Origin: Naegleria gruberi
Taxonomy: Eukaryota
Assembly: GCA_000004985.1 (NCBI GenBank)
Contig: GG738884.1
Length of the DNA stretch: 64,000 nt
Strand: one strand, 5' to 3'
The position numbers and the translations under genes are program-made. The first letter of the stretch is position 1, and each line of letters begins with the position of its first letter. Under the pieces are notes generated by a model that was not told the origin of the DNA, searched no databases, and saw nothing but the letters and a program-made list of their open reading frames with translations. Below, one piece after another: positions 4,265 to 64,000 of the stretch.

Positions 4265-7200
4265 ATGAAAGGTGGCAATCTCTCAGTATCTAAATTGGAT
4301 AATGACAGATACACTCAGCCACCAACAACACGATCACAACACACCATCTATTCAAGATCATCAACTCTTTTCATCATCATTCTAATAATTATTTTATTAA
4401 TTTCTTCCTTCTCGAGTCTATTCGTTCTCTCTCAATCGAACTATTGTAAAGATAAAACCTATCGATTCATCAGTGTTGTTCCTGATGAAGGTGATGCAAC
4501 CAATTCATTCAGTGGTGATAAATTAAAAACCTCCATCTCTATTGGCATTGATTATTTACGGGCTCAGGGAATTTTACCAACAGGAGTTTCCATTGAAAAT
4601 GTTTTTGTTGTTACAAAGAATGATTTATCGGGTGCTATTGAAAAGATGAGGAATTTAATTATGGTCAATGGAACAAAGGATGAAAGATATGTGGGAATTA
4701 TTGGAGCGTAAGTTTTTAAAGATGATTAATATTGATGATTATTAATGATGAATTTGTAATCGGAATTAAATGATTATATTCATTGATAATGATAACATCA
4801 TGTGGAGAATAGTTACTACAGCTATGAATCTTTGACGATTGCTTATGAAATTGCCTACGAATATCAAATTCCAATGATTTCGTATGGTTCTTCTACGTCT
4901 GTACTTTCGTATAACAGATGGTTTTATAGAGTGTAAGTTTTAGGAAGAATCAGAGATTATAATTGATTAATAGTATTCCATCTTCGTTAGCCATGACATC
5001 TGCAATGGTGGAATTTTTATATTCTTTGGAGTGGTCAACTATTTCAGTTTTGGCATCAAATGAGGTTTATGGAGTTGATTGTGCAAGGAATATTCAAGCA
5101 ACAGCTAAAGAAATTGGTATGACCATTGATAATGTATATTATTTCAAGGTTGGTGATCACCAAGAATTAGCAGATCGAGTTACAAAAATCAAAGAATCTG
5201 GAACCAAGGTGATTGTGACAATTATGACTTCAGATACTGATGCCACTTTTCTATTGGGAAAAATTAAGGAAATGCAACTCAACACTGAGGGATATATTTG
5301 GATGTTTGATGAAACTTTTGCCTATCAGCCTGGTATTTCTGCAAAGAATGTTTCACTCACATCTGATTCACAGGGAATGTTCTTTGTGGAATTGAATTCT
5401 GGGTTGTGGTCTAGTGATTTGTACTTTGTTGGAAAGTTTATGCAACAATATAATTATTCGAGTGTGGAAGAGACCTATTCACAAATTCAAGCTTTTGATG
5501 TAAGTATTATTAATGAAAATATAGAGTGATGTTAACGAATTACAGAGATTTGCATTCGACTCTGCTTTGAGTTTTGGTTATACTATTCGTGATATGTGTC
5601 AAAGTGGATTGGATCCAACTCATGGTGTTGCGATGGTTTCCTCTATTGATCAAGTATCATTTATTGGAGCTAGTGGAAAAGTTTCGTTTGACTCTTATGG
5701 AGATCGTTTGGGAGTTTATTATTCTGTAAATAATGTGGATGGAAACGAGGCCACCATTGTTGCTAAATGGAGCCAACGTGAATCTATAGTTTGGGACGAA
5801 TTTTTCTATGTAAATAGAACTCTCAGAGTGCCTTGGGGTAAAATCACAAATGTTCAAATCTTTTTGAATTCACCCCTTACAGGAAACAGATGGTTTTCAA
5901 TTCCATCAGTCAATCAGGTACCACCAGAACGTCACAGTCATACCATGTCTCTAGGAATTACAACAAATAGACTATATTTATTTGGAGGTAATTCTCAATC
6001 TAAACTTAATTTTGACATGTATTCTGATTTGTGGAAGTATGATTTTATCAGTGGACAATGGTCTAAAATGGAGGCTCTCGATGGATACTCTCCAAAGGGT
6101 AGAGAGGGCCACATAATGTGGACTGTTCAAGCTGGTGTCTATAGCACGGATGAAAGAATCATTATATTTGGAGGAAAGTCAGGTTCTTACACAGATGACA
6201 TGCTCGAATATTCTACTCTCAGATCTCAGTGGAGAACAATTTCTCCAAATTCATACAAGCCATTTGCGAGATACTCAGCCAAGATTGCTCAGTACAAAAA
6301 CAAAGTCTACATGTTTGGAGGTTTGACCTATAATGGTGTAAGAGATGATATGTGGATATGGAATAATGAGAATTATCAATGGAGTAAGGTTAACCAGACA
6401 TCCTCGGCTGTTTGGCCTTATGGTAGATATTCTCACTGTATGTCTGTTTATACATACAATGGAAATCCGTATATTTTACTTTTTGGAGGAAAAGGTCCAG
6501 CTGGTGAACCTTTATCTGACATGTGGCGTTTTGACATGACTCAAGAAACTTGGGCTCAAATAAGTCAAACAGGAGATGTTCAAGGAGCTGTGTTTGATTC
6601 TACATGTGTAGCCACTGATAAGTATTTATATGTATTACATGGAAAGACTGTAAAAGGAAGTCAACAAATTATGTTCAAGAAGGTAATGAGAGCTGACTTG
6701 CCGTTCACACAAACATCAGTCAAATGGAAAGTGACAGAGTCCAATCTCAGCGATCCTAGGTCAAATGTTGCTTCTGTTTTCTTTTCCAATTATATTATTT
6801 GGTTTGGTGGTCTAGGTCTAGATTATGACTTTAATGATTTTTATTCATTGAATGTCATTAATCAAAAGATTGTTAAAGTGAATAAGAACTTTTTTGCTCC
6901 TAGCCCTGTAGTAGCTCACACCATGTCTACCTTAGGTGCATCCCTTTACTTATTTGGAGGATATATTGGTGATGACATTCCTTCCAATCTACTCTACAAA
7001 TATTCTATTGCATCCGAAACGTGGTCTATTGTCGATACTCAAACTAAACCATCACAAAGATCATATCACACCCAAGTGACACTTGGTGATCGTATTTGGG
7101 TGTTCGGTGGTATTGAGTCTTCATCAAAAGTTTATTCTGATATTTGGACCTTTTCTGCCAGTGCTGATTCATGGACTCTTGTTGAGCCTAGAACATCTGC

Positions 7201-9848
7201 AGTACCTATAGCAAGATATAAGCATGCAATGACAAGAAATGAAACCCATTTGTTTGTAATTGGTGGTAGAACTCAAACAACTCAATTGACAGATATTTGG
7301 GCTTTTGATACAGAAACGAAAACTTGGTCGAAATTCAAGCAAATTATTACCTACGCCTATACAATAGATTGCTCTGCAAAATGGTTCTCTGCAGAAGAAA
7401 CAGGATCATACCCTGCTATTTTACTATTTGGTTGTCATGATTTTTCAGGTACGCCAACAGCTAATTATTACAAGGTTGAGATAACTGACGTTAACAATGA
7501 CCAGTTCAGGCTATCATACAGTACATTGTTTAGAGAAATAGAACCTAGGTCAGGGTTGGTAGCTGTCAAGTTATCAGGATTCAAATCAATGATATTTGGA
7601 GGTAGAATGGATCAAGAATTGTTTAATACCTTATTGCTTGTTGAGGGATCTACTGGAAACACAAGTGTGATTCTTCCTCCATTGACTGAGCATGAACTAC
7701 CTTCTGCTAGAGCCTACCTTTCCTATTCATTTATTGGAAATTCAATTTACATATTTGGTGGTGTTGGTGCACCAGAAGGAACTGAATTCATTTTACCATC
7801 TCTTAGAAATGGTGACATGTGGAAATATAATATTGGCAATGTTTGTAAAGGCAAAGATTCTACCAATTGTTACAAATGTGGACCAGGAACTTATGAAACC
7901 TATGGAATGTGCGAATTTTGTCAGCCAGGGTCATATAATGAGCAGTATGGAGCCATTGATTCATGTACAGCATGTCCAAAAGGATTTTACAGTGATGTAT
8001 ATGGAGCAAATCATGCTCAGTTTTGCCTTCCTTGTGAGTATGGTACCTATTCTGATAAGCCAGGAAGTACCTATTGCTTACCTTGTCCAGATGGAGCTGT
8101 TTGTCAACTTGGTGCTATCCAACCAGTCTATAACTATACAAAGATTGCTTACAGAAAATCAAATCAACCAGATGCCTACTTTTCCAAAGAAGTGGAGAAC
8201 AGTAATGCTATCAAAATTGAAGCTGGTATTATTGCATCAATTGCTGGCTCTCTTATTCTGATAGTGTTTTTCTGTTGGAAAGTTTTTAATATTCCAAAAG
8301 AAAACTGGATCAAGAGAATGGACTTTTTCTTTACTGAGAGACACAATAGATTAATGGGTACAATGATCAAAAGAAGATCAATTGTTGGAGCTTGTTACAG
8401 TTTTATTGTTTTGGTAGCGTTCTTGGCCTACATTATTGCACTTGTTGTCCCTTACTAGTAAGTACAATTATTTCGAATATTTTATTAGAAAATTTTATTT
8501 TAGCAATTACGGAAATTATGTGGAAAACAGAAGCTTGGTTCCAAACCTTGCTTTGGATGACGAATTCAAATCAGATGCAGTGATTAGCCTAAAAATTCTA
8601 GGTTTTAACGGTCGGTGCACTGAGGGAAATCAAACAATTATTGACAAGCCAATGAAATGTCAAGAGAAGCTGTCCATATTCCTGGAATCAATTGATTATG
8701 ACAATTCCACGAAAGGTAGTAATTTCGAATATGATTGTCAAATTGACGATGATGGAGCTGGTTCGAGAAGTTGTATTGTTTCTATGAGATTTACTAATTG
8801 TGCATTTGCCAAAGATAGAAAAACAGCAACTATTGGTATTAAGGTTGGTGGTAGTAATGCATTTGCCAATGGATATGAGTATCAAGTAGATTTTGCTTCT
8901 GCCTACATTGATGTTTATATGCCTGAAAAATTACCACAGAGATCAGTAATTAATGGCACAATTTACTCTGATGATAACACCTTCTTTAGAGGAACCAAAA
9001 CTCCAACCCAGGTCAATTTCCAATTAATTCAAAACAGATACACAATTCCATCTAAAAATATTAAGCAAACAGGCTATGTCATTGATTTCCAAGATCAGTC
9101 ACAGGGAGACGTTGTTGAATCTCTATCATTTAGTCACGAAAATGGCCTTTATTTTGTGTTGAGTTTTGAAAAGCTATCCACAACACTTGAATTAGTTCTC
9201 TCTGAGAAGAAGGTTATCTTTGTCTTTTTAACTGACATGCTTGCTTCACTTTCAGGTATTTTCTCATTGACAGCATTGACCATGTCAATAACTGAATTTT
9301 TCATTTTCCACTATAAGAGAATTAGAGCTAATTTGATTGCCTATAGAAAGAAACATGCCAGTATGGATACCAACTATTTATTGGACGAAGTAGTACTTCA
9401 GGGAACTGAATATCAAGCAATGAAGAAAAATCTCAATAGACAAGACGAAGCATTCTACGATGACATTACAATAGCCAAAATTTATCACAAGAAGGGAATG
9501 AGAAGAAATGTTGTGTACATTCCTTCCAATGCTCTAGAGGATGAAGAACTCATCGATGCTAACCAACATGAACTAGTCACTGAAAAACCACCCTCAACAG
9601 AAACCTACATGGAAATGCACGAGAATGCAGACGAATATGCACCACCAGTTTTAGCCAACAACCGATCTGTCTCAATTTTCTCCAAACGAAAGAAGAAGAA
9701 TTCAAAGTCTGAACTTGCAGAACCATTCATTACCGAAGAGGAAATGGATTTGGATGATCTTGTCAATGAGCAAGACAATAATTTCTCACTCAATGACATC
9801 AAAGGACCACTCACATCTTCAACCACAGCAGTACCTTACTACAAATAA
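4265..9848 (+). CDS. Large membrane receptor-like protein of about 1781 aa: N-terminal TM anchor, ANF-receptor/periplasmic-binding-protein (Venus flytrap) ligand-binding domain, Kelch beta-propeller repeats, GCC2_GCC3/ephrin-receptor-like Cys-rich repeats, multiple TM helices and a cytoplasmic tail. Exons 4265..4707, 4813..4932, 4974..5499, 5546..8457, 8504..9848.
   Basis: ATG at 4265 followed by a hydrophobic LFIIILIIILLISSF segment. The PBP1/ANF_receptor motif YGSSTSVLSYNRWFYRV is split across exons 2 and 3. More than 10 Kelch-like blades with recurring LYLFGG/IIFGG/VYMFGG/LLFGG/WVFGG motifs lie between 5900 and 7800. A Cys/Tyr-rich block CYKCGPGTYETYGMCEFCQPGSYNEQYG..CTACPKGFYSD..CLPCEYGTYSD..CLPCPDG follows, then TM IIASIAGSLILIVFFCW and TM ACYSFIVLVAFLAYIIALVV. 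Introns have GTAAGT donors and TAG/CAG acceptors, and all phases check. The last donor (GTAAGT at 8458-8463) overlaps the in-frame TAG at 8456-8458. Splicing to the acceptor at 8503 continues an open 448-codon frame that contains a further TM (LASLSGIFSLTALTMSI) and an acidic tail. Confidence 0.55.
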
Positions 9849-9960
9849 AAGACTTCAATTAGTATACTGCATCGTGCAGGTTCAATCTCAATATACTAAT
9901 TGAGAATCAACTGCACTTTACAATGAGTATTTAAATTATTAATTTAGAAATTTAAAAAAA

Positions 9961-11228
9961 ATGTCATCGTCAACCTCTGCTGTTGATGCCAAGCAAAATT
10001 CAAAGGCATCCGAAGAAGAACGACATGATCAAGTTTCCCTCGGAGAGTATTTTGTTGTGTTTACCTTTATGGCTTTCTCTCTATTGATACATTTGTACTT
10101 ACCATTCCCAAGTACCTATGTTTTCAAAGCCTACTTTATTTATTTTGTTTTCCAATATGCACTGGCTAGATTCTTACCTGGTACTATAGTAAAGGGTCTG
10201 CCTTTGGAGGATGGTACTGTGTTGGAGTATAATTGTAATGGACTGCAAGCTTACTTGATTACGTTATCTTTGTTTTTGGCTGGTGGACATGTTGGTTGGT
10301 GGAAGTACTCAATTGTCTATGATCACTTGTTGGAATTTGTGGCTGTTACTAGTATTTTCCATTGGTGTTATTGGTCAATTGTTTTTATCAAAGGAAGAAT
10401 GTTAAAGAAGAGAGAATATAATGATGGATTAATTAGAGAAGTTTGGTTGGGTGCTGAAAGAAATCCAAGAATTCTTGGAGTTGATTGTAAATTATTCTTT
10501 GATGGAAGACCAAGTTTACTCACATGGGTTGTTGTTGCATTCTCATATGCATCAGTTCAATATGAAAAGTATGGTGCCTTCAGTACTCCAATGCTTATTT
10601 ATTTAATCTTTTCATTCTTGTACATGTTGGATTTCTTTGTAACTGAGAATCAATTCATTACTGGATTCGAAATTTATCAAGAAAGATTTGGATTTATGTT
10701 ATCTTGGGGTAACTTTGTTTGGTAAGTAGTGACTATCTCAATACTCAATTGACCAAATTATTTAGGATGCCATTTGTCTGTACTGCTCAAGCTTATTATC
10801 TTATTGAGTGGAGTGAACTTCCAACATGGGGAAGCATTGCTGTTTGTCTTTTGTGGTTATTTGGTTATGTTGTTGCTAGACTTTCAAATGCTCAAAAGGA
10901 TAAATTCAAGAGAGAACCAAATGCTCCATTCTTGGGTATCAAGTCAAGGTATATTGAAACTCCTGAAGGAAAGAAGGTTCTTACAAGTGGATTCTGGGCA
11001 TTGTCTCGTCATCCAAATTATTTTGGTGAATTGGCAAACTCACTTTCATTCGGATTGATGTGTGGATTTGATAAGGGCATTTTCCCTTACGCTTACAGCA
11101 TTTTCATTTGGACCTTGTTGTTTACAAGATACGAAAGAGACCACAGAAAGATGGCTGTCAAGTATGGTGCCTCATTTGACAAGTACTGTAAAGAAGTCAA
11201 GTACAAGATCATTCCATATTTATACTAA
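9961..11228 (+). CDS. Sterol reductase of the ERG4/ERG24 family (delta14-sterol reductase / 7-dehydrocholesterol reductase-like). Exons 9961..10721 and 10766..11228.
   Basis: Family signature 2 is a perfect match: VLTSGFWALSRHPNYFGE. The protein is multi-TM throughout, and the C-terminal MAVKYGASFDKYCKEVKYKIIPYLY resembles the family C-terminus. One phase-2 intron, GTAAGT...ttatttag, was verified. Confidence 0.75.
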
Positions 11229-11375
11229 ATTCAATCAACTTGGGTTAAATTGATTCGTAAAATATTTTTGTTGAAATTTATTGCACCATATCTCCTCACA
11301 AATGGACAAATGGTGACTTGGCTCTACTGGGATACTTCCAATTTTGTTTAAACTTTTCACCAAAGCAAATTACGT

Positions 11376-12353
11376 TCACTCACAAAACAAGTTCAATTCA
11401 CCCAATTCATCATATTCTACTTCAGTTTCTTCACAGACCACTCTTGGCTTTGGATTCATAAAGTTTTCGTATTTTTCAATGAAAGAAAGTAGTCCGTTGA
11501 TATTCGAAACCGGTTCACCCCAAAGTTTAATCTCTTGCTTATTCGTTTCCTCATATGAAATTGAATATTTCCTTCTGAAAACCATTCTCCCAGCAAATAT
11601 TCTTTCATACATAAAACTTCTACTCCAACTCCTTGTTCTGCAAACATGTTGAGCAGTTAAAAATCTTTGAATAAGGTTTACAATTCCAAAGTCATCTCTC
11701 ATGTTGTTGTATACATAATTCCTCACAAATACAATGCTCTTTGGATTTTGTATAAGGGCTGTTTTTACGAGATCCTTAGTTAGAATGCTTGAATTGACGT
11801 ATTTGAGGGATTTTCCGTTTTGTTTGACAGCTGCCAAGGCTATTTTATAATCACTCTGTAATCTATGTGAAGCATCTCTCAAGTTTAATCCATTCAATTT
11901 AACACATTTCTTTACAAAATCCCCATTATCCCTTAGTACATCATCCCCAAATCCAAGAATGGCTAACTTTCTAATAGAACATTCAACTGCCACCTCCAAA
12001 ACTTCTATTTCCTTATCCAATGATGATAAATACAAAACCTCTCCTCTCGTCTTCTTCATTATACTCTTGAACAATTCTTGATTCTTACTAAACAATTGCT
12101 TTACAATAATTGCAGTGTCATACGAGCATCGATAGAAAACACTTCGTGTTCTCTTTTTCTTCCGAAAACAATCATCAATATCTCTGAAGAATTTTACAAC
12201 CTTTTCCATTCCCCAATTTTTGTATTCAACAACTTGATGTGATTCTTCTTTGAAATTGTTTTTCATTAATTGAAAATATTTGTGATGATGATAAAATTCT
12301 ATCAATCCAAGTGATTGAGAATCGAGTAGGCATACAACTGGTATTGCTGACAT
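11376..12353 (-). CDS. DUF4116-repeat protein (hypothetical)
   Basis: ATG at 12351-12353. Tandem repeats of the form LRDASHRLQSDYKIALAAVKQNGKSLKYVNSSILTKDLVKTAL match the DUF4116 repeat pattern (..AvkqnG.aLkya...l..d.e.v..A). Confidence 0.5.
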   Translation of the reverse strand: MSAIPVVCLLDSQSLGLIEFYHHHKYFQLMKNNFKEESHQVVEYKNWGMEKVVKFFRDIDDCFRKKKRTRSVFYRCSYDTAIIVKQLFSKNQELFKSIMKKTRGEVLYLSSLDKEIEVLEVAVECSIRKLAILGFGDDVLRDNGDFVKKCVKLNGLNLRDASHRLQSDYKIALAAVKQNGKSLKYVNSSILTKDLVKTALIQNPKSIVFVRNYVYNNMRDDFGIVNLIQRFLTAQHVCRTRSWSRSFMYERIFAGRMVFRRKYSISYEETNKQEIKLWGEPVSNINGLLSFIEKYENFMNPKPRVVCEETEVEYDELGELNLFCE

Positions 12354-27967: not shown

Positions 27968-30900
27968 TTATTTGGAGTTCTCCTCCTTTGAATCATCTTG
28001 TTTTTGGGGTTGGCTGGTTTCCTCAATGTCCTCAATTTCCAAATCATCTTCCTTATGTCTTGGAGAAGCTTCAACAGACTCATCAGAAGTGAACATATCA
28101 TACTCACCCTTAAAGTAAGACATGGATTTCTCTGTTAGTTTCATAGGGAATCTGTTTTCAAATTGGAATCTTGGATGAGGTACATTGAATTTGTTCTTTA
28201 GGTTGGTGTCTTTCTTCAGCTCTTCAATTCCTTGCTCAACATAATTTACCAAAACATCGGCAGTCATTTCCCTCCTGAATATTTCCCTGTTTGTATCATT
28301 CTCAAACACAGCACAAATAAGGGTTGGGAATAATATTTGCTTGTTTTGGTTGTCCGAAAAATATTGGTCTGGTAATGAAATTAATCTCTGTAGAATGGTT
28401 GGGTTCCTTCCATTGTGATAGTGGAGCATATCTTGATTGGATTGATTTTCCAAGCAGAAATATCCAATGAGAAGAATAATTTCATTCAAGAGGTCTGGAA
28501 TGTGAATTTTAAGATTGGATGCAATAGCAGAATCATATACAATCAGTGTTGGATCATAGTTGACGGATTCTATAAAACTCAAAAGGAATCCAATTATGTG
28601 GAACAATTCTGTTTGGAAAGTATCTCCCAGAATTTTCTGGATGAAATCAAGATCAATGCATGCCAAGTTGTTTAAAATTCTAAATGCTAGGAATGTTATT
28701 CTGAGGGCAAGGTCATTGAGTTCTGGTTTGTTTTTACCTCTCAAAGGTCCACTAGCAAGAACAATAGTTGATAATACAGGTAGGACGTCAATAACATTAA
28801 TTGATTGGAATTTAGCGATGAGGTTTTCAATTTCTGGTCCCTTTTTTTGAACATAGACAGGTAAATGTCTAAGTTTGGCATACGTGAATGTTGTCATCAC
28901 TCTGATAAGCTCCAAAGATTTAAGAATGAAAGAAGATCTTTCTTGTAATTGGAATTCATCAACATAGATTACATGTGATTTGATAATATCCAATAGTTTG
29001 GTACTGACAATAAAGTCAATCAAGTAGTCTTTAAACATTACTTCCACTTCAACAATCTCAGCAGAAGGTGTTTGCAATAGTTTGGTAATAATTACCACCA
29101 TCATTTCCAATTCAGCAAGTGATGTGGGTTGATTACCTAGCTCAATAGTTGCTTGTAAAACTGAGCAAATTAGGTTGTTAGTATTAATGTAAATTAGATT
29201 ATCCTTAAGCTTGCAGAGAGAATTGAGTGCCTGAATGTAGGCAGATCTTTCGTCTGCATCCTTGGCAAGTGCCATTTGAGAACACACACAATCCAAGGCG
29301 CCTTCATCTCTGAGAGATTCCAAAATATCAGATCTACTAATTCTAGATAAAGACAAAAGTGCTTGGATGAGTACATCAGATTTAGGTTGATTCTTGATGT
29401 TTTGTACTGTCTTTTTGAAAAGATTTGATTTCGGTTTGGCTTTTGGTTTGATTTGAATGAGCTTTTTCTCCATAGCTTCAAAGGCTTTGGTGAATTTTTG
29501 TTTGGCTCTTTTGAATTTCTTACTCGATTTCTTATTTTCGTTAGTGCTATCCTCTTCAGCAGCAACGATTGGAGATGGTGAGACAACATTATATTCGACT
29601 TTTGGTGGGGATAGAGCTCTCTTTCTAGCTTCTTCAACTTTCTTCAAGTCAATGGATGCCTTTGCCTTCTTAGTTTCTATAGTTTTAGTCTTTCTATCCT
29701 CAGCAGCTTCAAGCTTTTTCTCTAATTTTTCTGACAAGTGTTGTGTAGAGAGCTCGGTTTCCTTCTTGGTCTTTTGGATCTTTTTTTCATATTCGACCTT
29801 TTTGCTGATTCTTTCAGCAGATTCCTTCTCTTTTTGCTCTTTAATGAGTTCGACTTTCTTCTCTTTAGCCTTAATACTTTCAAGGAAAGTTTGTTGGCGT
29901 TCAATTTCTAATTGTTGTCTTCTCATCTTGGCTGCTCTCTCCTTTTCTAGATCCTTAGTGCATTTGACTTTGATTTTATGTTGCTCTCTTTCTCTTCTTT
30001 CTTGGGAGGCTGTTAATTTTTGATCGAGTTGGAACTTGTTCTTTTCTTCTTCGAGAGATTTAATAAATTTGACTTCTTCAACCTTTTCGCTTTCTTTTCT
30101 GGCCTCTTCCATAACTTTCTTGATGTGTATTTGGTTATTCTTTCTTGCTCTTTCGTGCTTTTCTTCTTGTTTCTTTTTAGTTTCTTCCAGTTCCTTTTCT
30201 CGTTTTTTCAAAACTTCCTTTTGTTTTTCTGCCTCCTTTAAGAATTTGACCTCTTGTTGAATTTGTTTTGTTTGTCTATTCCATGCTGATTTGGCCATCT
30301 TTTCCTCTTGTCTTCTTCTAATGTCCTCTGGTGACAACCTCTTTCTGTTTGGGGATGAAAGTCTTTCCCTTACAGACATCATATCAGGAGAACTGGGAGG
30401 AGAGTTTTCTGGGCTTGATACAACATCTGCCCAAGCTCTTCCCTGAGTTCCAAATGAAGGACTATTGAACAAATCTTCAAATGAGGTACTGATATTGATC
30501 TGGCTAGTTGAATTAGATGGTGTTGTATCGCTCAATAATGAAGAATTAACATCATTGACAGTTTGTTTTGATAATAATTCAGAAAAATCTTTGACAGCTG
30601 ACTGAAATATATTACAAATTTCAGAAGTAAATTCACTTCCATTTTGCTCGCATTCTTTAAATAAATCCTCAATTATTCTTTTGGAAAATTAAATTAGTAT
30701 AACAAAATAAAATACTACACAAACCTTCTTACTTCATCAGTTGTCAATTTAGTTTCCTCAACAGGTGAAATGACTGGAACAAGCATCTTTTTAGGAACTA
30801 TTTGTTTCTTTGGACTCCTGGTGATAGAAGCATTTCCAACTCTAAATGAATGAAGATTTTTCTGAGATAATGTTTTTGGAGTAATGATAGACTCCTTTTG

Positions 30901-52759: not shown

Positions 52760-54393
52760 ATGCCGACGATGAACAACATCAATGTTGAACCAAGTAATCC
52801 GCTGAAGGGATTCAGAACTGGCTTATTGGAAAAATTGTTCGTGGACACTTCGCCAACAGCTTTGAGGCGAAATTCTATTCACAATACCACATCACCAACA
52901 TCATCTTCTGCAACAGTACTATTAAATAGTAGTGTGGATGGAAAAGAGATAATGGATGAGGGTAGTAGTAGAATTTGCTCTGCACCATCTGGCCTTCCAA
53001 ATCAGTCATCATCAACTAATGGAAAAACAAGTCCTTCATTGCTAACACATTCCCGAATGATGAAGAGATGTTCCAAGCAACAATTGTTAAGCATGCTACC
53101 AAAGAAACCATATTTAAGAATTCAATATGCATCTCACTGTTGCTCTGGGGTTATATCCGATCAATTACAAGAGGAAATTCTTAAAGTTGCCCAACGAGAG
53201 AATGAACTGAGAGGCATAACTGGTGTTTTAATTTGTGTTCAGGACATGTTTTTTCAAATCATTGAGGGTCACACGGAACAAGTAGATAGATTATATCACA
53301 ATATTTTGAAGGATAAGAGACATTATGATGTGGTGTGTGTTGACAAGACATACTTTAGTTTAGATGAGGAGAGATATTTTCCAACTTGGTGCATGCAGGC
53401 ATTGGACATACAGAGCTTATTTGATCATTGTCTCGATCCAGCTCATTCAACAGCTGTTGGGGCTGCATTTAGGGCTTTTAAAACATTACTAGGTATGTTT
53501 CTTTATAATCAACGCCAATAATTATCATTTTTGGATTTTACTGATTCTATCTTTGAATTCAATCATGCATCTTATAAAATATAACCGCTTTGCTAACCTA
53601 TCAATTCAACAGGTTCACTTTTAAATACACAACAAGTGTTTAGAAATTATGCTCAACCTGCCATTTCAAAATATTTGAGTGAAGGGGAGAACCCAATGAT
53701 TAAGGAATCAGTAGAGACTGATAAGGTTATATTATTCATTGATCTTGTAAATTATACGAGTATCACCGAGAAGGTTTCAAAAACAAGGAAACCATCACAA
53801 GTGGTAAATATTTTGAATACATTCTTTGGAGTTGTTATGGAAACAGTTGAGGAATATTCTGGAGAGATAACTAAATTAATTGGTGATTGTGTAATGGTCT
53901 ATTTTGATGGAAACGAATGTCAACAGGCTGTTGATTGTTCCATTGATATTTTGGAGAGACTTGAAACTTTAAGGCAAACATCTGATGATCCTTGCATTAA
54001 GATGATTTATTGTACCATTGGTATCAGCAGAGTAAGTTTTACATCTTGAAAAAAGCTCAAAAATCTTTTTAATAGGGATTGGTTATATTTGGAAATGTTG
54101 GTTCTGTGGGAAGGAAACTTGATTTTACAGTAATTGGAGACTCTGTGAATACAGCATCTAGATTACAATCATTTGCTTCCATTTCTCCACATTTTCTAAT
54201 ATTCGATGAGAGTGTTAGAGAGAGACTAGAAGACACAACAGAACAATGTATCGTTGAAGTTGGGGCAATAGAACTAAAAGGAAAAGAAAGGTCTGTTAAA
54301 ACTTACACAATCGATCACGAACTCAATTACAAACCTTCCAAAAAAGAGATGGACCGCATAATGTCTCTATCAGCCCTCACAGAATATTGTTGA
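52760..54393 (+). CDS. BLUF-domain + class III adenylyl-cyclase protein (photoactivated adenylyl cyclase-like), copy 1. Exons 52760..53492, 53613..54031 and 54076..54393.
   Basis: ATG at 52760. BLUF: LRIQYASHCCSG...ITGVLICVQDMFFQIIEGHTEQVDRLYHNILKDKRHYDVVCVD, with the conserved Tyr and Gln. Cyclase: ILFIDLVNYTSITEK...KLIGDCVMVYF...GLVIFGNVGSVGRKLDFTVIGDSVNTASRLQS. Introns GTATGT...caacag and GTAAGT...taatag were verified for phase. Confidence 0.85.
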
Positions 54394-54777
54394 GAGAACC
54401 ACGAGTGGATTCATAGAGATCTATAAGGAATTTTAAATTTGGATTATGGTGTTGTTGGCAGGTTGTATTTAATTCAATGAAAAGCTGTATGGTTTTCCAT
54501 ATATATAATTCACAGAGATATCAAGGAGGCAATGGTATATTTATATTTTTTGTAACCATCTTAATGGGAGAATATTTGAATAAGAAATAGTTAGCCCATT
54601 TTCCTTATTTATAATAATTGGAGACCATATTAAGGATTTGAGATTATAATCTTCATCTTTGTCTCCAACACTTCAAGGTAAAAGGGTGCCTATCCTCGAA
54701 CAACACAACTCAAAAAAAAAAAAAGAACAACTCAACATCAACACCAATCATATTTTTCATCTCCAAATCACCACCAC

Positions 54778-55950
54778 ATGTCCTCCATTCAAGAACAATC
54801 TCCACAATATACTCGTGTGCAATATGTATCCCTCTCAACGCAGGGAGTCATTACAGAAAAGATAAAGTCCCAGATATTAGCCTCATCCAACAAGAACAAT
54901 TCCAAGCGTCATATTACCGGCTGTTTGATATGTGTGAAGGATATGTTCTTTCAAATTATTGAGGGAAAGACAGATGATGTTGAAAATTTATATACAACTA
55001 TTGTCAAGGATAAAAGACACAACAATGTTGTCTGTGTTGACAAGTCTCAGTTTTTTAATGAAGAAGAGAGAATGTTTCCTTCATGGGATATGAAATCGCT
55101 TGATGTTGACAGTTTATTCTCAGCAAAGAAGGAAGTTTTGATTTGTGGGGAGAATTGTAATCCACTGGATCCAGCACATAAACGAGTCATTGAGACTGCA
55201 TTCTCTGCTTTCACAACCTTGATGGGTAGTTTGTTTAGAGCTCAACAAGTTTTCAAGAATTATGCTCAACCGAGTGTCAGCAGGTTTGTCAGAGAAGGAT
55301 TGAATCCACTCTGTATTCAATCAGTTGAAACTGAAAAGATTGTACTTTTTGTTGACCTTGTAAATTATACCACCTTAACAGAAATCATTTCCCAATCGAG
55401 AAGTGCATCAGAAATTGTAAGAATACTCAATGTTTTCTTCACAATTGTTATGGAAATTGTTGAAGAATATGGAGGAGACATTACAAAATTGATTGGTGAC
55501 TGTGTAATGTGTCACTTTGATGGCCATGATTCACAGAAAGCAATAGATTGCTCATTGAAAATCCTCCAACAACTAGAACTTCTCAGAAATGAAACAACCG
55601 ATCCATTCGAAAAACTCATCTTTTGTACAATAGGCATATCTAAAGGAAAGGTCATTTTGGGAAATGTTGGTACAGTGGGTCGTAAATTAGACTATACTGT
55701 CATTGGTGATTCAGTTAACACATCGGCAAGATTGCAATCATTCGCTTCCTCGACTCAATATTATCTCATTTTCGATGAGAATGTAAAGAATGATTTGGAG
55801 AGTGGTGATTCAGTTATTTTCTGTGGTTCGATAGAATTGAAAGGAAAAAGAAATACTGTAAACGCCTACACAATAGAAAATGAATATAATAGAAGATTGT
55901 TGAAAGAAGATTTGAAAGCTCTCTACTGTAGTGTATCACTAGAAATGTAA
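54778..55950 (+). CDS. BLUF-domain + class III adenylyl-cyclase protein (photoactivated adenylyl cyclase-like), copy 2, intronless
   Basis: ATG at 54778. BLUF: YTRVQYVSLST...ITGCLICVKDMFFQIIEGKTDDVENLYTTIVKDKRHNNVVCVD. Cyclase: VLFVDLVNYTTLTE...KLIGDCVMCHFDG...GKVILGNVGTVGRKLDYTVIGDSVNTSARLQSFAS. It is roughly 55-60% identical to copy 1 and collinear with it. Confidence 0.9.
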   Translation: MSSIQEQSPQYTRVQYVSLSTQGVITEKIKSQILASSNKNNSKRHITGCLICVKDMFFQIIEGKTDDVENLYTTIVKDKRHNNVVCVDKSQFFNEEERMFPSWDMKSLDVDSLFSAKKEVLICGENCNPLDPAHKRVIETAFSAFTTLMGSLFRAQQVFKNYAQPSVSRFVREGLNPLCIQSVETEKIVLFVDLVNYTTLTEIISQSRSASEIVRILNVFFTIVMEIVEEYGGDITKLIGDCVMCHFDGHDSQKAIDCSLKILQQLELLRNETTDPFEKLIFCTIGISKGKVILGNVGTVGRKLDYTVIGDSVNTSARLQSFASSTQYYLIFDENVKNDLESGDSVIFCGSIELKGKRNTVNAYTIENEYNRRLLKEDLKALYCSVSLEM

Positions 55951-56978: not shown

Positions 56979-58232
56979 TTACAATTCGAGGTATTCTTTT
57001 AATCTAGCTAACCTATTATCTTCAATATTTACATCTAACAATTTCAATAAATCCTCAAGAATCAATTTTTTGTATACGTCTTTGAATAGAGGATGATGAA
57101 CAGAGACAGAATAGTTATAAGCTAAACCTGTTGGAGATTTACAGGTACAAAAGTACCACTTGTTCTGAAGCTCATTCCAATCAGACCACTGAATTTTCTC
57201 CTCTTTCAAGTGTTGTTTGAGATTCTTCAAACAATGTTGACACTTAATAAATTCACCTCCAAAATGAACTCCATGGAATTCTACAAGTGTGTAAGCACCA
57301 ATTTGAATTTTTTGGCATTGACAAGATTGTAAACAACCACCTGATGATCCATTCATAACACTCTCATTTGAAATAATAAAGTTGGAGTTTTCTGTCGTTA
57401 ATACCAAATCATCATGTTCAACCCATTCAATTTTGCCATTTTGAACTTTTTCAGTGTAAGGTGCAAGTACTTTTCCTGTAGAAACACATAACCTCCCAAA
57501 ATTGTGAAACACGTTTCTAGCCATATCATCACAAGGTGCCCATTCTTGGTATTCCTGATGCTGTGAAACGGAGGTTGAAAATTTAGTTCCTTCAATGCCT
57601 GGAAAATGTGTTGTGAAAATATCATCGTCAATTTGGAGTACAGTTGGACATGGAATGAATAAAACCTTTGGCCATTCATGCGATACTTTACAAGTCAATT
57701 TATGGATTGAAATATCCAAATAATTGAAATTGCCTATTGAGCTGGATATTGGGTCTTGATATTCCTGTTGAAACGATGGAAAAAGTTCTTCTTGTTTTTG
57801 CATGAGTTTCCACCCCTTTTCTCTAATTAGAGAAGCACCTGTATATATAACACTCTCCTCTTTTGGAAGTGTAAAATTGGTTGTTGCTTTTGCAAGTTGT
57901 CCAGTGAAAAATGTAGGTGGAGATGGATAGGATATGTGTTGATTTGTAATTACTTGTTGAGGAAGAATGTAGAAACCTGTACCAACAGCCGAAACAGTTA
58001 GAACCCTTGTCATACTCTTTTTTGTTAGTAATATCAACTCCTTAATAGAGTTTAATTTGTCAAGCCTTGAGTGAGAATATTTCAAATTGGTTGGTGGTAT
58101 AATTTGAGCATCTTCATCTACCAAGAAAACGTTCCAGTAAACATCGTGAAAATGCTCCTTTGTTGAAACTGCAACATCACCTTGTTCCGATTGAGGCACC
58201 ACAACTTCCAACACTTGCCTTACAAACCGCAT
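56979..58232 (-). CDS. Trypsin-like serine-peptidase-domain protein (Trypsin_2/S1-like) with a C-terminal Cys-rich extension
   Basis: The His motif VGTGFYILPQQVITNQHIS matches GsGfvi..iLTnaHVv, and the Ser motif MNGSSGGCL matches GnSGGPl. The Asp is not confidently placed. Confidence 0.4.
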   Translation of the reverse strand: MRFVRQVLEVVVPQSEQGDVAVSTKEHFHDVYWNVFLVDEDAQIIPPTNLKYSHSRLDKLNSIKELILLTKKSMTRVLTVSAVGTGFYILPQQVITNQHISYPSPPTFFTGQLAKATTNFTLPKEESVIYTGASLIREKGWKLMQKQEELFPSFQQEYQDPISSSIGNFNYLDISIHKLTCKVSHEWPKVLFIPCPTVLQIDDDIFTTHFPGIEGTKFSTSVSQHQEYQEWAPCDDMARNVFHNFGRLCVSTGKVLAPYTEKVQNGKIEWVEHDDLVLTTENSNFIISNESVMNGSSGGCLQSCQCQKIQIGAYTLVEFHGVHFGGEFIKCQHCLKNLKQHLKEEKIQWSDWNELQNKWYFCTCKSPTGLAYNYSVSVHHPLFKDVYKKLILEDLLKLLDVNIEDNRLARLKEYLEL

Positions 58233-60345: not shown

Positions 60346-60589
60346 TAAATTGTAATTTGAGGAAAATTGGCAACAAATGAATGAAACCTCCTAAAATCTG
60401 TAACACAGTGTAGTTGAGTAACAACCTTTGTGAAGTAGAAGTTCACATTAGTGTTCGCCAAGTTTCGGTTAACACTCCAAACAAACATCAATCGGAGAGT
60501 GCAAGCAAAGATGATATGATTGGTTCAATAGTAAACTACCTCCCAAAAAGTACACAAAAACAATTTAAATCCCATTGATTCACACCAAC

Positions 60590-63500
60590 ATGATCCGAAC
60601 TCAAAAAAAAACACAAAAGATGACAGGCCAGCAGGTCTGTATTGGAAGAAGTCTTTCCTCTGAAGGCTACTTGATGTTGTTGACATTGATGGTAGCTATA
60701 GTTTGTCTCTCTCAAATCTCTTCAGTTTCTGGAATTACATTCTACGCCAGTATCGATTGTGGTCCTCATGGAAATTGTAGTGGCTACGCATGCCAATGTG
60801 AAAGTGGTTATATTGGCCCTCATTGTGAATATCAATGTAATGATACGGAATGTAATGGTCATGGAAAGTGCAACCCATCTTATAGTGGTTCATATGGTAG
60901 TAGTTTTTGTAAGTTTCACACATGTGCTTTTTTACAATAATATAATTACATGCGTAATTTGTTCTTTTTTTACAATAATATGATTACATATATGTAATTT
61001 GTTCATGATACAGGTAATTGTGATAAGGGTTATGGTGGCGTGAATTGTTCACAAAAGTTCGATTGTTCTTCATTGAATAATTGCTCAGCTCATGGTTATT
61101 GTTCCTACGACAATTATTGTACATGTGACTATGAGTGGACTGCTGCCAATTGTTCCCTTCCAATCACTTGTAATAAGGTCAATAATTGCTCAGGTCATGG
61201 TTATTGTTCTGGTTATCAAGCTTGTAGTTGCTCTCAAGGATGGACTGGTGCTGATTGTAATTCCGTTTACAATTGTTCACTTCTTAATAATTGCAATGGA
61301 AGAGGTATTTGTTCTGCTGATAATTATTGCTATTGTAATTCCCAAAGTGGTTATTATGGTGTCGATTGTACTACACCATACAATTGTTCAGCTTTGAATA
61401 ATTGTTCAAGTCATGGTGTCTGTACAAATAACGACTATTGTACTTGTAGTGCTGGTTATTATGGAACTAATTGTTCATTGAAATATGAGTGTGTATCCAA
61501 TGATGAATGTGGATTTCCAAATGGTAATTGTATGATGGGCTCTTGTTCTTGTGTTTTTGGTTGGGGAGGTGAAAAATGTCAAAAGATGATTTGTCCAAAC
61601 AATTGTAATAATCATGGCAATTGTTCTTCACCTGGTTCCTGTACTTGTGATAATGGATGGCTTGGTTCTGAATGTTCTTACTCATGTTCTGGTATTGGAG
61701 GTTGTGGTATTAATGGATATTGTGCCAATAATAATTCCTGCGTTTGTTATCCAGGTTGGCAAGGTGTCAATTGTAATATTGCAAAATCTCCAAATTGTAC
61801 TGCTTTTAATAATTGTTCAGGAAATGGTGATTGCATAAGTAGTTATGGAGGAGATGATTACTGCTCATGCTACCAAACTTATTATGGAGACAAGTGTGAT
61901 CTCAAGTACAATTGTAGCTCTTTAAATAATTGCTCAGGTCATGGTGTCTGTACAAATATCAACTATTGTACATGTGAAGCTGGTTTTGGTGGAAAGGACT
62001 GTTCTTCAAAGCCAAACTGTACTTCTTTGAATAACTGCAGTGGTCATGGCGTGTGTACTTATGATGACTATTGTATTTGTAATCTTAATTATGGAAATGC
62101 TGATTGCTCAGTTTACAATCCTCCAATTTGTCCAAATAATTGCTCTGGTAATGGTACATGCAATCAATATAGCTCTTGTGATTGTAAGGAAGGATATTGG
62201 GGATATGATTGCACAATTACTTGTCCAAAAACAAAGAATTGTAACAGTCATGGTTTTTGTTATGCTCAAGACCAATGCTCTTGTAATGTTGGTTGGATGG
62301 GAGAAGATTGCTCAGTTCCAGAACCAAATTGCAATGCTGTTAAGAATTGTTCCTATCATGGTGTTTGTATAGAAAACAATGTTTGTGCATGCTATACTGG
62401 TTATGATGGTTTAACTTGTGCTGACTATTCATGTAGAAACGTTTCAAATTGTAATGGGCATGGCTCATGCGTTGGGGTTGATACTTGCCAGTGTAAGAGT
62501 GGTTGGAGAGGAAACTCAGATTGTTCTGCCTTCTCTTGTGAAGCTGTTAATAATTGTACTGGATTGGGAAGCTGCATTGGTCAAAATCAATGTTCAGGAA
62601 ATCCATCAATCAAGTGTTATGGAGTTGTTTCAACCAGTGGTTCTGTATGTAGTGGTAAGGGTACTTGTGTTGGAACTGATAGTTGTCAATGTGTTAGTGG
62701 AGCTTTTGGATCTAATTGTAATTCATTTGCTAGAATTCCATCTAGCCAATTGGTTATTAACTCTGTCAATTTCGAGTCTGTCATTTCAATTCCAGTAACT
62801 TTGACTGGTCCAAGTACCTACACATTCAAATGGAAACAAGTTGGTGGATCTCCTTCATTGCAACTCTCTACAATTGCTGTGGGAGGTATTGTCAATGGAC
62901 CTGGTTTGTACATTAACGCAAATTCTGAAACATTCAACAATGGAATGGTTGCTGGTGAAACTTACACCTTCCAAGTTAATATTACTAGAGCTGATGGATA
63001 CTCTACCGTTTTGGAATCAAGCGTTCAAGTTGGTTTGAGTCCAGTGTTGAAAGCCACAATAGTCAATCCATCTGATAACTCACAAACTGGTGTTGCTGTT
63101 ACTACCAAATTTACTGCTACTATTCAAGAATCCTATGATCCAAATGATTCTGAAGCTACATTAATGTACGGATATGGTTTCTACACTGAAAGTGGTTTGA
63201 AGGTTGTCTCTGTTTATTCTTCATCCAAGCAAACTAATTTAACGCTCCCATATCAAACTGGTGGCTCCGTTACTGCCTTTGTATACGTCATCAATGCACA
63301 AACTGGTAATCAAAAGGAACTCAAGTTCTCAATGAATGTTTCAAATCCAACAAGTGGAAAGTCAGCCTCAGAAGTCAATTCATTTGTTCAAAATCTTGTT
63401 ACTTCAGATGCTTCGGTTTCTCAATTGTCCATAGCTGTTCAATTGTTGACCACCTCACCATCCAGTGATCCAACTGTTGTTCAACAACGTACCGATATCA

Positions 63501-64000
63501 AGCAACAAGTTATTACAACTCTCGTTTCTAAACCAGTAACAACTAGTGCTGAAAGAGACACTTTGTTGACAGTTCTTGTTTCAACTACTCAATCAGCCAA
63601 CGAAGTATCAACTACATCAGTTACAAAGACTTTGGATTTCTTAGTTTCCCAACCATCATTGGCTCAAAACTTCAATCCATCCCAACTTGGTCAACTTGCC
63701 TCTCAAATTTTGTCAACAGCTGTTTTTAATTCGACCAGTATCTCAACTTCCACCACAAGTAAACAAGTTAGAACCATCATCGATGCTGCCATGACTGCCA
63801 CAGCCTCAAACTTGGCTGCTGGACAAAGTGCTGTCAAGACATTTGGTAACATTGTTGCTGTCGTTTCAAGTAATACTCTTGATAATTTACAACCAACAAT
63901 CCCAACTAATTCAATTAGCTCAGTGGGTATTAAATCAATTTCTCTCCCAACTGCTAGTTTACAAAGTTTATTCACCAACTCTGGTCTTCCATCAAGCACT
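60590..64000 (+). CDS. Giant secreted/membrane protein with 25+ tandem EGF-like (tenascin-type) repeats followed by a Ser/Thr-rich REJ-like region. Partial: it runs off the 3' edge. Exons 60590..60908 and 61014..>64000.
   Basis: Signal-peptide-like MLLTLMVAIVCLSQISSVSG. Exon 1 has EGF-like Cys patterns. The intron is GTAAGT (60909) ... atacag (61013), phase 1. Exon 2 is an uninterrupted frame of repeats NCSxHGxCxxxxxCxCxxGWxGxDC (about 61014-62700), then a ~430-aa Ser/Thr-rich beta-rich region with no stop to 64000. The ORF track does not show this frame because it lacks an in-window stop. Confidence 0.65.
60927..61005. repeat. Imperfect ~38-bp tandem duplication inside the intron of the EGF-repeat gene
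   Basis: The sequence ttttttacaataatataattacatgcgtaatttgttc is followed immediately by tttttttacaataatatgattacatatatgtaatttgttc. Confidence 0.5.

What the first reader, a model, noticed from the sequence alone, without database searches (positions are those of the whole stretch)
60590..64000. Partial giant EGF-repeat protein with a REJ-like Ser/Thr-rich module, possibly a polycystin-1/PKD-REJ-type receptor, missed by the ORF track
More than 1,000 codons of uninterrupted reading frame (61014 to 64000) encode about 25 tenascin-type EGF repeats (NCSGHGxC...CxCxxGWxGxDC). These are followed by a Thr/Ser/Val-rich beta-region (..TAFVYVINAQTGNQKELKFSMNVSNPTSG..SQLSIAVQLLTTSPSSD..) whose composition and periodicity resemble the REJ module that precedes GPS/PLAT/11-TM in polycystin-1-like proteins. 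The frame is not listed in the ORF track because it has no stop within the window. The first exon (signal peptide plus the first EGF) is joined by a 105-nt intron that itself contains a 38-bp tandem duplication. Everything beyond the EGF repeats is inference.
Basis: partly seen in the sequence, partly recalled or inferred. Interest (0 to 1): 0.5.

Follow-up and report, generated by a model that had tools for sequence, protein, structure and literature searches.

The report
Amoeba EGF-repeat surface protein, REJ/GAIN-type
This is the first ~88% of a real gene from a Naegleria-like amoeba for a large cell-surface glycoprotein: about 18 EGF repeats, then a module distantly related to the REJ/GAIN region of polycystin-1, but its full-length relatives end in a simple membrane anchor rather than a polycystin channel.

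Summary
A two-exon gene (exon 1 60590-60908, 105-nt GT..AG intron, exon 2 61014 to the window end) encodes 1102 stop-free residues. It has about 18 teneurin-type EGF repeats, not 25 (Pfam EGF_TEN E 8e-84). Codons are in register with 61016, not 61014.

The tail is not simply a Ser/Thr beta region. It is two FN3/PKD-like beta-sandwiches followed by a helical bundle. Pfam REJ does not match it. An exhaustive search links it to Naegleria gruberi and Willaertia magna proteins (E 1e-26 to 1e-17), and more weakly to proteins whose matching stretch lies inside a Pfam REJ match.

Five full-length relatives continue for about 150-175 residues. Four of them (P0002-P0004, P0006) carry a clear beta subdomain with a GPS-like motif (C..VKCRVYHL|TDF); P0005 is degenerate there. 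Profiles of this region hit latrophilin-3 GAIN/GPS first in the PDB. A predicted model hits BAI3, CELSR1 and CD97 GAIN domains. All five then stop after a terminal hydrophobic anchor, with no PLAT, 7-TM or 11-TM.

So "REJ-like, GPS probably downstream" is supported, and "polycystin-1-type receptor" is not. The nearest known architecture is sea-urchin suREJ1. The downstream DNA could not be retrieved.

The parts
60590..60908 (+). Exon 1. In-frame ATGs lie at 60590, 60620 and 60674. The signal-peptide-like hydrophobic core is aa 29-48 (60674-60733). Exon 1 also carries the first five-Cys EGF-like unit and the first part of EGF unit 1. It ends in phase 1.
   Evidence: The upstream in-frame stop is at 60566. 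MLLTLMVAIVCLSQISSVSG read from M29 looks like a signal peptide (my reading; no predictor was run).
60909..61013 (+). Intron of 105 nt, GTAAGT...ACAG, with in-frame stops at 60938 and 60995.
   Evidence: Removing it restores Cys107 (T|GT) and a canonical six-Cys EGF, aa 83-118. No RNA evidence is available.
60928..60989 (+). Imperfect tandem duplication inside the intron, with copies 38 nt apart.
   Evidence: 60928-60951 and 60966-60989, 24 nt, 96% identical. Not reported by Tandem Repeats Finder.
61014..64000 (+). Exon 2, open to the end of the window. Codons are in register with 61016.
60758..62719 (+). Array of about 18 teneurin/tenascin-type EGF repeats (aa 57-675, interrupted by the intron), rich in N-x-S/T sequons.
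   Evidence: EGF_TEN 7.9e-84; EGF_Teneurin 16 stretches; EGF_2 13. (16 full units plus 2 partial; 28 sequons in the whole product).
62747..63034 (+). Beta-sandwich 1 (aa 685-780), FN3/PKD-like, with the conserved YKW.Q..G and GETYtF motifs of the family.
63044..63343 (+). Beta-sandwich 2 (aa 784-883). This is the part that aligns with the C-terminal third of Pfam REJ matches in other proteins (motifs DP..., LxYxYGFY, LP..G...FV.V.D).
   Evidence: (block pLDDT 75-92).
63365..63976 (+). Ser/Thr-rich helical region (aa 891-1094), the counterpart of the helical bundle that precedes the GPS-bearing beta subdomain in relatives. It is inferred to be GAIN subdomain A. The window ends (64000) just where subdomain B starts in relatives.
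   Evidence: aligned to the end with P0002-P0006. (10-11 helices, pLDDT falling from about 88 to about 45). for the relatives.

Best explanation
The region holds the 5' ~88% of a nuclear gene from a heterolobosean amoeba (a Naegleria/Willaertia relative). The gene encodes a large, heavily N-glycosylated cell-surface protein.

Shown. The order of parts is: a signal-peptide-like N-terminus; about 18 teneurin-type EGF repeats; two REJ-related FN3/PKD-like beta-sandwiches; and a conserved helical bundle.

Inferred from five full-length relatives. The missing 150-175 codons encode a beta subdomain that completes a GAIN domain. It carries a two-cysteine GPS motif (C..x..C.x.HL|TDF), which from memory looks like that of polycystin-1. 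A short Ser/Thr linker and a terminal hydrophobic segment (GPI-attachment signal or tail anchor) follow. There is no PLAT, 7-TM or 11-TM part.

Proposed working (inference). The EGF rod projects a binding surface away from the membrane, for substrate, prey or cell contact. The REJ-GAIN module sits next to the membrane. Where HL|T is intact, it may self-cleave yet hold the two halves together through the last beta-strand. Pulling force could then release the ectodomain. Nothing here points to channel or G-protein coupling.
For: Gene model and open frame.

EGF.

Eukaryotic, heterolobosean context: the neighbours are copine, BLUF-cyclases, XPB and SNF2 genes with few introns, and the only relatives come from N. 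gruberi and W. magna.

Family: tail vs P0002 1e-26, P0003 1.4e-21, P0004 6.7e-19, P0005 1.1e-16. These align over the whole tail up to the last window residue.

REJ link: P0006 (REJ 1.2e-18) and P0008 (REJ 8e-62) match the tail inside their REJ stretches.

Ending: all five relatives stop right after a 15-22 aa hydrophobic tail. The W. magna gene ends in TAA followed by AT-rich DNA with no long ORF.
Against: The decisive C-terminal part of this gene lies outside the window and could not be retrieved.

Pfam REJ and GPS models do not reach threshold on the window tail, nor does GPS on the relatives.

Identity to relatives is only 26-31% (20% to P0006), so they are probably paralogues rather than orthologues and could differ at the C-terminus.

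Two relatives lack HL|T (P0004 YQLGDF, P0005 VLRGNV), so cleavage is not universal.

The adhesion and force-release function is inference only. GPI anchor versus transmembrane tail anchor is undecided.
Confidence: 0.7

Rival explanations
1. One reading: a polycystin-1/PKD-REJ-type receptor, in which the EGF array and REJ module are followed downstream by GPS, PLAT/LH2 and an 11-TM polycystin domain.
For: The tail is remotely related to REJ-bearing proteins. From memory, the GPS motif of the relatives (CQ[YF][YF]N...G.....C.x.HLTDF, two Cys) resembles polycystin-1's GPS more than the four-Cys adhesion-GPCR type. The window ends before the decisive part.
Against: All five full-length relatives end in GPS plus one terminal hydrophobic stretch. 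No PLAT or PKD_channel Pfam hit appears in any of them. The W. magna locus has a TAA and no ORF of >=100 aa on that strand in 6 kb downstream. The tail aligns collinearly with these relatives to its last residue.
Confidence: 0.07
2. An adhesion-GPCR-like receptor: EGF repeats plus a GAIN domain followed by a 7-TM domain, as in EMR/CD97 or CELSR.
For: The best PDB sequence and fold matches of the relatives' C-terminal module are adhesion-GPCR GAIN domains. EGF plus GAIN is the CD97/EMR layout.
Against: No relative has a 7-TM region. They terminate after one hydrophobic segment.
Confidence: 0.05
3. A secreted or matrix EGF-repeat protein whose C-terminus differs from the relatives: no GAIN subdomain B, no anchor, or a lineage-specific extension.
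For: Relatives are only 26-31% identical and have very different N-termini (NHL propeller, CAP domain, other EGF types). This shows that the family shuffles domains. The C-terminus of this gene was not seen.
Against: In this family the variable part is N-terminal. The sandwich-sandwich-helix-GPS-anchor module is constant in five of five relatives (P0005 with a degenerate GPS). The window protein matches it up to the exact point where the window ends.
Confidence: 0.13
4. The Ser/Thr-rich tail is just a mucin-like, disordered, O-glycosylated stalk with no REJ/GAIN relationship, and the similarities are compositional.
For: S+T+V make up 40% of the tail. Low complexity swamped the word-indexed searches. 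pLDDT drops below 60 in the last 100 residues.
Against: The two sandwiches are modelled mostly at pLDDT 75-92, with position-specific conserved motifs: W73, G114, Y117, Y185, G188, L211 and P212 are invariant in A1. The helices are aligned and predicted in both models. The exhaustive HMMER search returned only 8 hits in 1.8 billion proteins, all architecture-consistent, which is not the flood that compositional bias would give.
Confidence: 0.05

Closest known systems
Uncharacterised heterolobosean proteins: N. gruberi XP_002671152 (P0003/P0009), XP_002674870 (P0004), XP_002670245 (P0010); W. magna KAL9646279 (P0002), KAL9645869 (P0006)
   Same: They share a collinear module after teneurin-type EGFs: two beta-sandwiches and a helical bundle. 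E-values are 1e-26 to 2e-8, with 20-31% identity over about 400 aa.
   Different: The N-termini differ: NHL propeller, CAP domain, other EGF types, or a full-length REJ in P0006. None has an 18-EGF array. They are annotated only as 'predicted' or 'hypothetical' protein. The window protein's C-terminus is unseen.
Sea urchin sperm receptor for egg jelly, suREJ1 (Moy et al. 1996, PMC2120838)
   Same: It is a modular surface glycoprotein with an EGF module followed by a REJ module (abstract read). From memory, a GPS and a single C-terminal membrane segment follow, rather than 11 TM. This is the same overall logic as the heterolobosean family.
   Different: suREJ1 has one EGF, two C-type lectin modules and a 700-aa REJ module. 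Here there are about 18 EGFs, no lectin module and only a short (two-sandwich) REJ-related part below Pfam threshold. The lineage is far outside animals.
Polycystin-1 / PKDREJ / PKD1L family
   Same: REJ-related FN3-like sandwiches lie upstream of a GAIN/GPS (REJ is built of FNIII-like domains and is needed for GPS cleavage: PMC3677617). The relatives have a two-Cys GPS with HL|T.
   Different: The relatives have no PLAT/LH2, no 11-TM and no channel-like domain. There are no PKD-repeat arrays, LRR or C-type lectin.
Adhesion GPCR GAIN domain (latrophilin, BAI3, CELSR1, CD97; Arac et al. 2012, PMC3321182)
   Same: In the relatives, a helical subdomain plus a beta subdomain ends in ..C.x.HL|T.F immediately before a membrane segment. 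GAIN domains are already known outside animals, in Dictyostelium and Tetrahymena.
   Different: There is no 7-TM. There are two rather than four GPS cysteines and no conserved Trp pair. The Pfam GPS model does not match.
Teneurin/tenascin EGF arrays
   Same: The best Pfam models for the repeats are EGF_TEN 7.9e-84 and EGF_Teneurin. The spacing is NCSGHGxC...CxCxxGWxGxxC.
   Different: There is no teneurin YD-shell, NHL or Tox-GHH, and no tenascin FN3/fibrinogen parts. The resemblance is at repeat level only.

Membership tests
EGF-like repeats, teneurin/tenascin type (Pfam EGF_TEN PF25024, EGF_Teneurin PF23106, EGF_2 PF07974) | Score above the curated Pfam cut-off | tested here: met
   EGF_TEN 281 bits (cut-off 65); EGF_Teneurin 187 bits (24.3), 16 stretches; EGF_2 120 bits (22.1), 13 stretches.
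EGF-like repeats, teneurin/tenascin type | Six-cysteine pattern C-x-C-x-C-x-CxC-x-C, repeated | tested here: met
   16 complete units plus 2 partial units found by pattern; 105 Cys in aa 57-675.
REJ domain (Pfam PF02010) | Match to the REJ profile at or above the gathering score (25 bits) | tested here: not met
   No REJ hit for the window tail at E<=1, and none for P0002-P0005 at E<=0.01.
REJ domain (Pfam PF02010) | Significant sequence similarity to the REJ region of bona fide REJ proteins | tested here: met
   The tail finds P0006 1023-1232 (E 1.9e-8; its REJ match is 838-1202) and P0008 544-718 (E 8.4e-4 library-wide, 32.6 bits; its REJ match is 287-706). Only the C-terminal third of the REJ model is covered.
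REJ domain (Pfam PF02010) | Built of FN3/PKD-like beta-sandwiches | tested here: met
GAIN domain with GPS | N-terminal helical subdomain A (about 6 helices) | tested here: inconclusive
GAIN domain with GPS | Beta-sandwich subdomain B ending in the GPS motif ...C.x.HL|(T/S).F | not testable with these tools
   It lies beyond base 64000, and retrieval failed. It is present in relatives P0002, P0003, P0006, P0020 and P0021 (HLTDF) and degenerate in P0004 and P0005. It is supported by PDB profile hits to ADGRL3 and by fold hits.
GAIN domain with GPS | Autoproteolysis at HL|T | not testable with these tools
   This needs biochemistry.
GAIN domain with GPS | Lies immediately before a membrane segment (Arac 2012) | not testable with these tools
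   For relatives the feature is met, with 25-90 residues between the GPS and the terminal hydrophobic stretch. For the window gene this part is unseen.
Polycystin-1 / PKDREJ family | PLAT/LH2 domain after the first TM | not testable with these tools
   Outside the window. Absent from all five full-length relatives.
Polycystin-1 / PKDREJ family | 11 transmembrane helices / polycystin channel-like C-terminus | not testable with these tools
   Outside the window. The relatives have a single terminal hydrophobic stretch. At the W. magna locus a TAA stop is followed by no ORF of >=100 aa on that strand in 6 kb.
Adhesion GPCR | 7-TM domain after the GAIN | not testable with these tools
   Outside the window. 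Absent in relatives.

The most novel reading that the evidence does not exclude
Heterolobosean amoebae carry a family in which a REJ-GAIN module with an intact HL|T autoproteolysis motif is tied to the membrane only by a GPI anchor or tail anchor. There is no 7-TM or 11-TM partner in the same chain. If these proteins self-cleave, the GAIN domain would work here as a stand-alone, force-releasable latch for an adhesive EGF rod. That would suggest ectodomain shedding, not tethered-agonist signalling, as an old or ancestral job of GAIN/REJ modules outside animals.
Probability: 0.25. Interest if true: 0.6.

Novelty: new member of a known kind. Interest (0 to 1): 0.35.

Why it matters
REJ and GAIN/GPS modules are mostly discussed as parts of animal polycystins and adhesion GPCRs, where cleavage and mechanical release control signalling and disease.

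A family in free-living (and pathogen-related) heterolobosean amoebae joins teneurin-type EGF rods to a REJ-GAIN module with only a simple anchor. This widens the known taxonomic and architectural range of these modules. It also offers a simpler system for asking what a GAIN domain does without a receptor attached.

For annotation, it shows that these 'predicted proteins' in Naegleria and Willaertia can be given a domain description. I found no paper linking GAIN or REJ domains to Naegleria.

For this window alone the gain is modest: a truncated, uncharacterised surface-protein gene.

Tried and rejected
(1) Translating from 61014 as given yields stops. The phase was corrected to 61016.

(2) Pfam on the tail gave no REJ or GPS hit. 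The only matches were PKD_2 at 0.085 and DUF2922 at 0.063, both noise level.

(3) phmmer of the tail against PDB sequences gave nothing at E<=10.

(4) The word-indexed homologue search with the tail returned only a 238-aa Logan fragment, P0001. Its contig L001 is 97% identical to window 62024-63539 and does not reach past the window end.

(5) The same search with the module alignment A1 returned nothing, because Ser/Thr-rich candidates swamped it. With the GPS-region alignment A2 it returned only two W. magna fragments, and no fragment of the missing C-terminus.

(6) A metagenome scan for the tail found 436 pattern matches, none confirmed.

(7) tblastn of the tail and the EGF array against the rest of the window found no paralogue.

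(8) The afdb50 fold library was unavailable.

(10) The look-up of encoding contigs for N. gruberi P0004 found the gene not on record.

(11) Literature searches for ERR1078381, 'GAIN domain'+Naegleria and 'REJ domain'+Naegleria gave 0 papers.

(12) The organism could not be named to species. The evidence says only a heterolobosean related to Naegleria/Willaertia.
Full report
**Observation**

The sequence at 60590-64000 was read and translated.

- The coding frame is in register with 60590 and 61016. In that frame the only stops between 60569 and 64000 are at 60938 and 60995, and both lie inside the proposed intron.
- Exon 1 (60590-60908) ends in phase 1. The intron (60909-61013, 105 nt) starts GTAAGT and ends ACAG. 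Bases 61014-61015 complete a Cys codon (T|GT).
- The spliced product is 1102 residues with no stop.
- The splice rebuilds a canonical six-cysteine EGF unit across the junction (aa 83-118). This is good internal evidence for the intron, although no RNA data exist.
- The other five frames of 61016-64000 contain 26-106 stops. The chance of 995 stop-free codons at this base composition is about 1e-29.
- The duplication inside the intron is real: 60928-60951 and 60966-60989, 96% identical, 38 nt apart. Tandem Repeats Finder does not list it.

**EGF array**

Pfam gives EGF_TEN 7.9e-84, EGF_Teneurin in 16 stretches and EGF_2 in 13 stretches. A cysteine-pattern count gives 16 complete units, a five-Cys N-terminal unit and one truncated unit. 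That is about 18 repeats, not about 25. The product carries 28 N-x-S/T sequons. Possible starts are M1 (60590), M11 (60620) and M29 (60674). From M29 the N-terminus reads MLLTLMVAIVCLSQISSVSG, a typical signal peptide by eye (no predictor was run).

**Context and organism**

The window is eukaryotic nuclear DNA. It is about 35% GC and gene-dense, with long ORFs. The genes include copine, two BLUF-cyclase genes, an EEP nuclease, XPB, an SNF2 helicase, a class I aminoacyl-tRNA synthetase, a JmjC protein and kelch proteins. From my own knowledge, BLUF-cyclases are typical of Naegleria among such eukaryotes. The only relatives of the tail come from Naegleria gruberi and Willaertia magna. The organism is therefore a heterolobosean amoeba, but the species was not determined.

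**The tail (aa 679-1102)**

Pfam finds no REJ, GPS or other domain at E<=1, only noise-level PKD_2 and DUF2922. PDB sequences give nothing. The word-indexed search found only a 238-aa fragment from a sequencing run, 97% identical at DNA level, and it does not extend downstream.

The exhaustive HMMER search of 1.8 billion representatives returned just eight proteins:

| Protein | Source | E-value |
|---|---|---|
| P0001 | the fragment above | 1e-126 |
| P0002 | W. magna | 1e-26 |
| P0003 | N. gruberi | 1.4e-21 |
| P0004 | N. gruberi | 6.7e-19 |
| P0005 | N. gruberi; part of the 1363-aa P0010 | 1.1e-16 |
| P0006 | W. magna | 1.9e-8 |
| P0007 | W. magna fragment | 2.0e-8 |
| P0008 | same cluster as a cnidarian (Hydractinia) protein | 8.4e-4 |

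P0006 and P0008 have Pfam REJ matches (1.2e-18 and 8.3e-62), and the stretch aligned to the window tail lies within those matches. The pairwise alignment shows shared motifs: GETYtF, LxYxYGFY and LP..G..FV.V.D. The tail is thus remotely REJ-related, over roughly the last third of the REJ model.

**Structure of the tail**

**What follows in relatives**

The alignment is collinear up to the last window residue. After that point the five full-length relatives run on for another 150-175 residues. Four of them (P0002, P0003, P0004, P0006) show a beta-rich segment ending in C(W/Q/R)(Y/F)(Y/F/L)(N/D)E...DG(V/M)..........V(K/E)C(R/S)(V/T)xHL|TDF. P0004 reads QLGDF there, and P0005 is degenerate. In all five, a short Ser/Thr/Pro linker and a 15-22-residue hydrophobic C-terminus with no cytoplasmic tail follow.

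- A profile of this region hits the GAIN/GPS of latrophilin-3 as the best PDB sequence (E 0.0043). It puts CrvyHLtDF exactly on CSCNHLTNFAVL. ADGRG1 also appears.
- The whole-module profile aligns with ADGRL3 626-831 (E 0.0019).
- The AF2 model of the P0003 module (pLDDT 72) has two sandwiches, seven helices, a beta subdomain whose last strand is HLTDFAIS, and a terminal helix.
- Foldseek ranks BAI3 GAIN (1e-6) and CELSR1 GAIN (2.7e-6) first.
- These values are moderate, and generic folds score similarly. Sequence profile, motif position and fold nonetheless agree.
- No relative has a PLAT, PKD_channel or 7-TM Pfam hit.
- In the W. magna locus the module lies on one exon and ends in TAA right after the hydrophobic tail. 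AT-rich DNA follows, with no ORF of >=100 aa on that strand in 6 kb.

**Interpretation**

The best-supported reading is a cell-surface glycoprotein with this order of parts: signal peptide, about 18 EGF repeats, two REJ-type sandwiches, a GAIN domain (its helical half is seen; its GPS-bearing half is predicted) and a simple anchor (GPI signal or tail anchor). I put this at about 0.7.

The polycystin-1 reading (PLAT plus 11 TM) gets about 0.07, and an adhesion-GPCR reading about 0.05. A different or absent C-terminal module gets about 0.13, and a purely mucin-like tail about 0.05.

The function is inference. It rests on what EGF rods and GAIN domains do elsewhere (PMC3321182; PMC3677617). The proposal is adhesion or contact sensing, with possible self-cleavage and force-dependent release.

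**Comparison with known systems**

- GAIN domains are already known in Dictyostelium and Tetrahymena, always directly before a membrane helix.
- REJ modules are built of FNIII-like domains and are needed for GPS cleavage in polycystin-1.
- The closest known architecture is sea-urchin suREJ1, with EGF, lectin modules and a REJ module (abstract). From memory, it has a GPS and one membrane segment.
- I found no paper linking GAIN or REJ domains with Naegleria. The relatives are annotated only as predicted or hypothetical proteins.
- This is therefore a new member of a known kind in an under-described lineage, not a new kind of system.

**Limits**

- The C-terminus of this gene was not seen.
- The family alignment is shallow (6-7 sequences).
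- No expression data were available.
- GPI anchor versus TM anchor and actual cleavage cannot be decided by computation here.

Noticed in passing
window 52760-55950 (+): Two neighbouring BLUF-domain genes. 54778-55950 encodes BLUF plus an adenylate/guanylate cyclase domain in one ORF. 52760-53521 encodes BLUF, and the two halves of a cyclase domain lie in separate downstream ORFs (53636-54049, 54079-54393). It is therefore probably one gene with two short introns or frame breaks. This is a tandem pair of photoactivated-cyclase-like genes.
   Followed up: partly
L001 (Logan ERR1078381 contig, 1523 nt) vs window 62024-63539: The contig is a 97.2% identical copy of part of this gene from a public sequencing run. 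There is a length difference (1500 vs 1516 nt aligned), and gene calls are broken into three pieces. It may be another strain or allele, a paralogue, or assembly errors. It is the only trace of this organism's gene in the protein collections.
   Followed up: partly
L002 (W. magna JBEGDK010000132.1) 6001-11477: The P0002 gene has its whole REJ/GAIN module on one exon (9753-11474). This follows a gap of about 1.5 kb that contains a second copy of the 21 residues at the exon junction (8734-8796). The neighbouring annotated genes ABK040_009961 and 009962 (P0020, P0007) are near-identical fragments of the same kind of protein. This suggests a tandem duplication or a split or mis-annotated paralogue.
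   Followed up: partly
relatives P0004 and P0005 (N. gruberi): Two family members lack the HL|T cleavage triad at the GPS position (YQLGDF and VLRGNV), while P0002, P0003, P0006, P0020 and P0021 keep HLTDF. If the module self-cleaves, only some paralogues would do so.
   Followed up: no
window 5567-8458 (+): A 963-aa ORF with a large kelch/attractin-type beta-propeller followed by an ephrin-receptor-like cysteine-rich repeat. It is another probable extracellular or surface protein in the same window.
   Followed up: no
window 56979-58232 (-), 8436-9848 (+), 27968-30535 (-): Long ORFs (417, 470 and 855 aa) with no Pfam match at the thresholds used. They may be lineage-specific genes.
   Followed up: no
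searches with alignments A1 and A2: The word-indexed protein search returned none of the query alignment's own member proteins (P0002-P0004), although they are in the collection. With A1 it returned nothing at all. Ser/Thr-rich queries seem to defeat its candidate step, so its negatives for this family should not be trusted (against 29 and 32).
   Followed up: no
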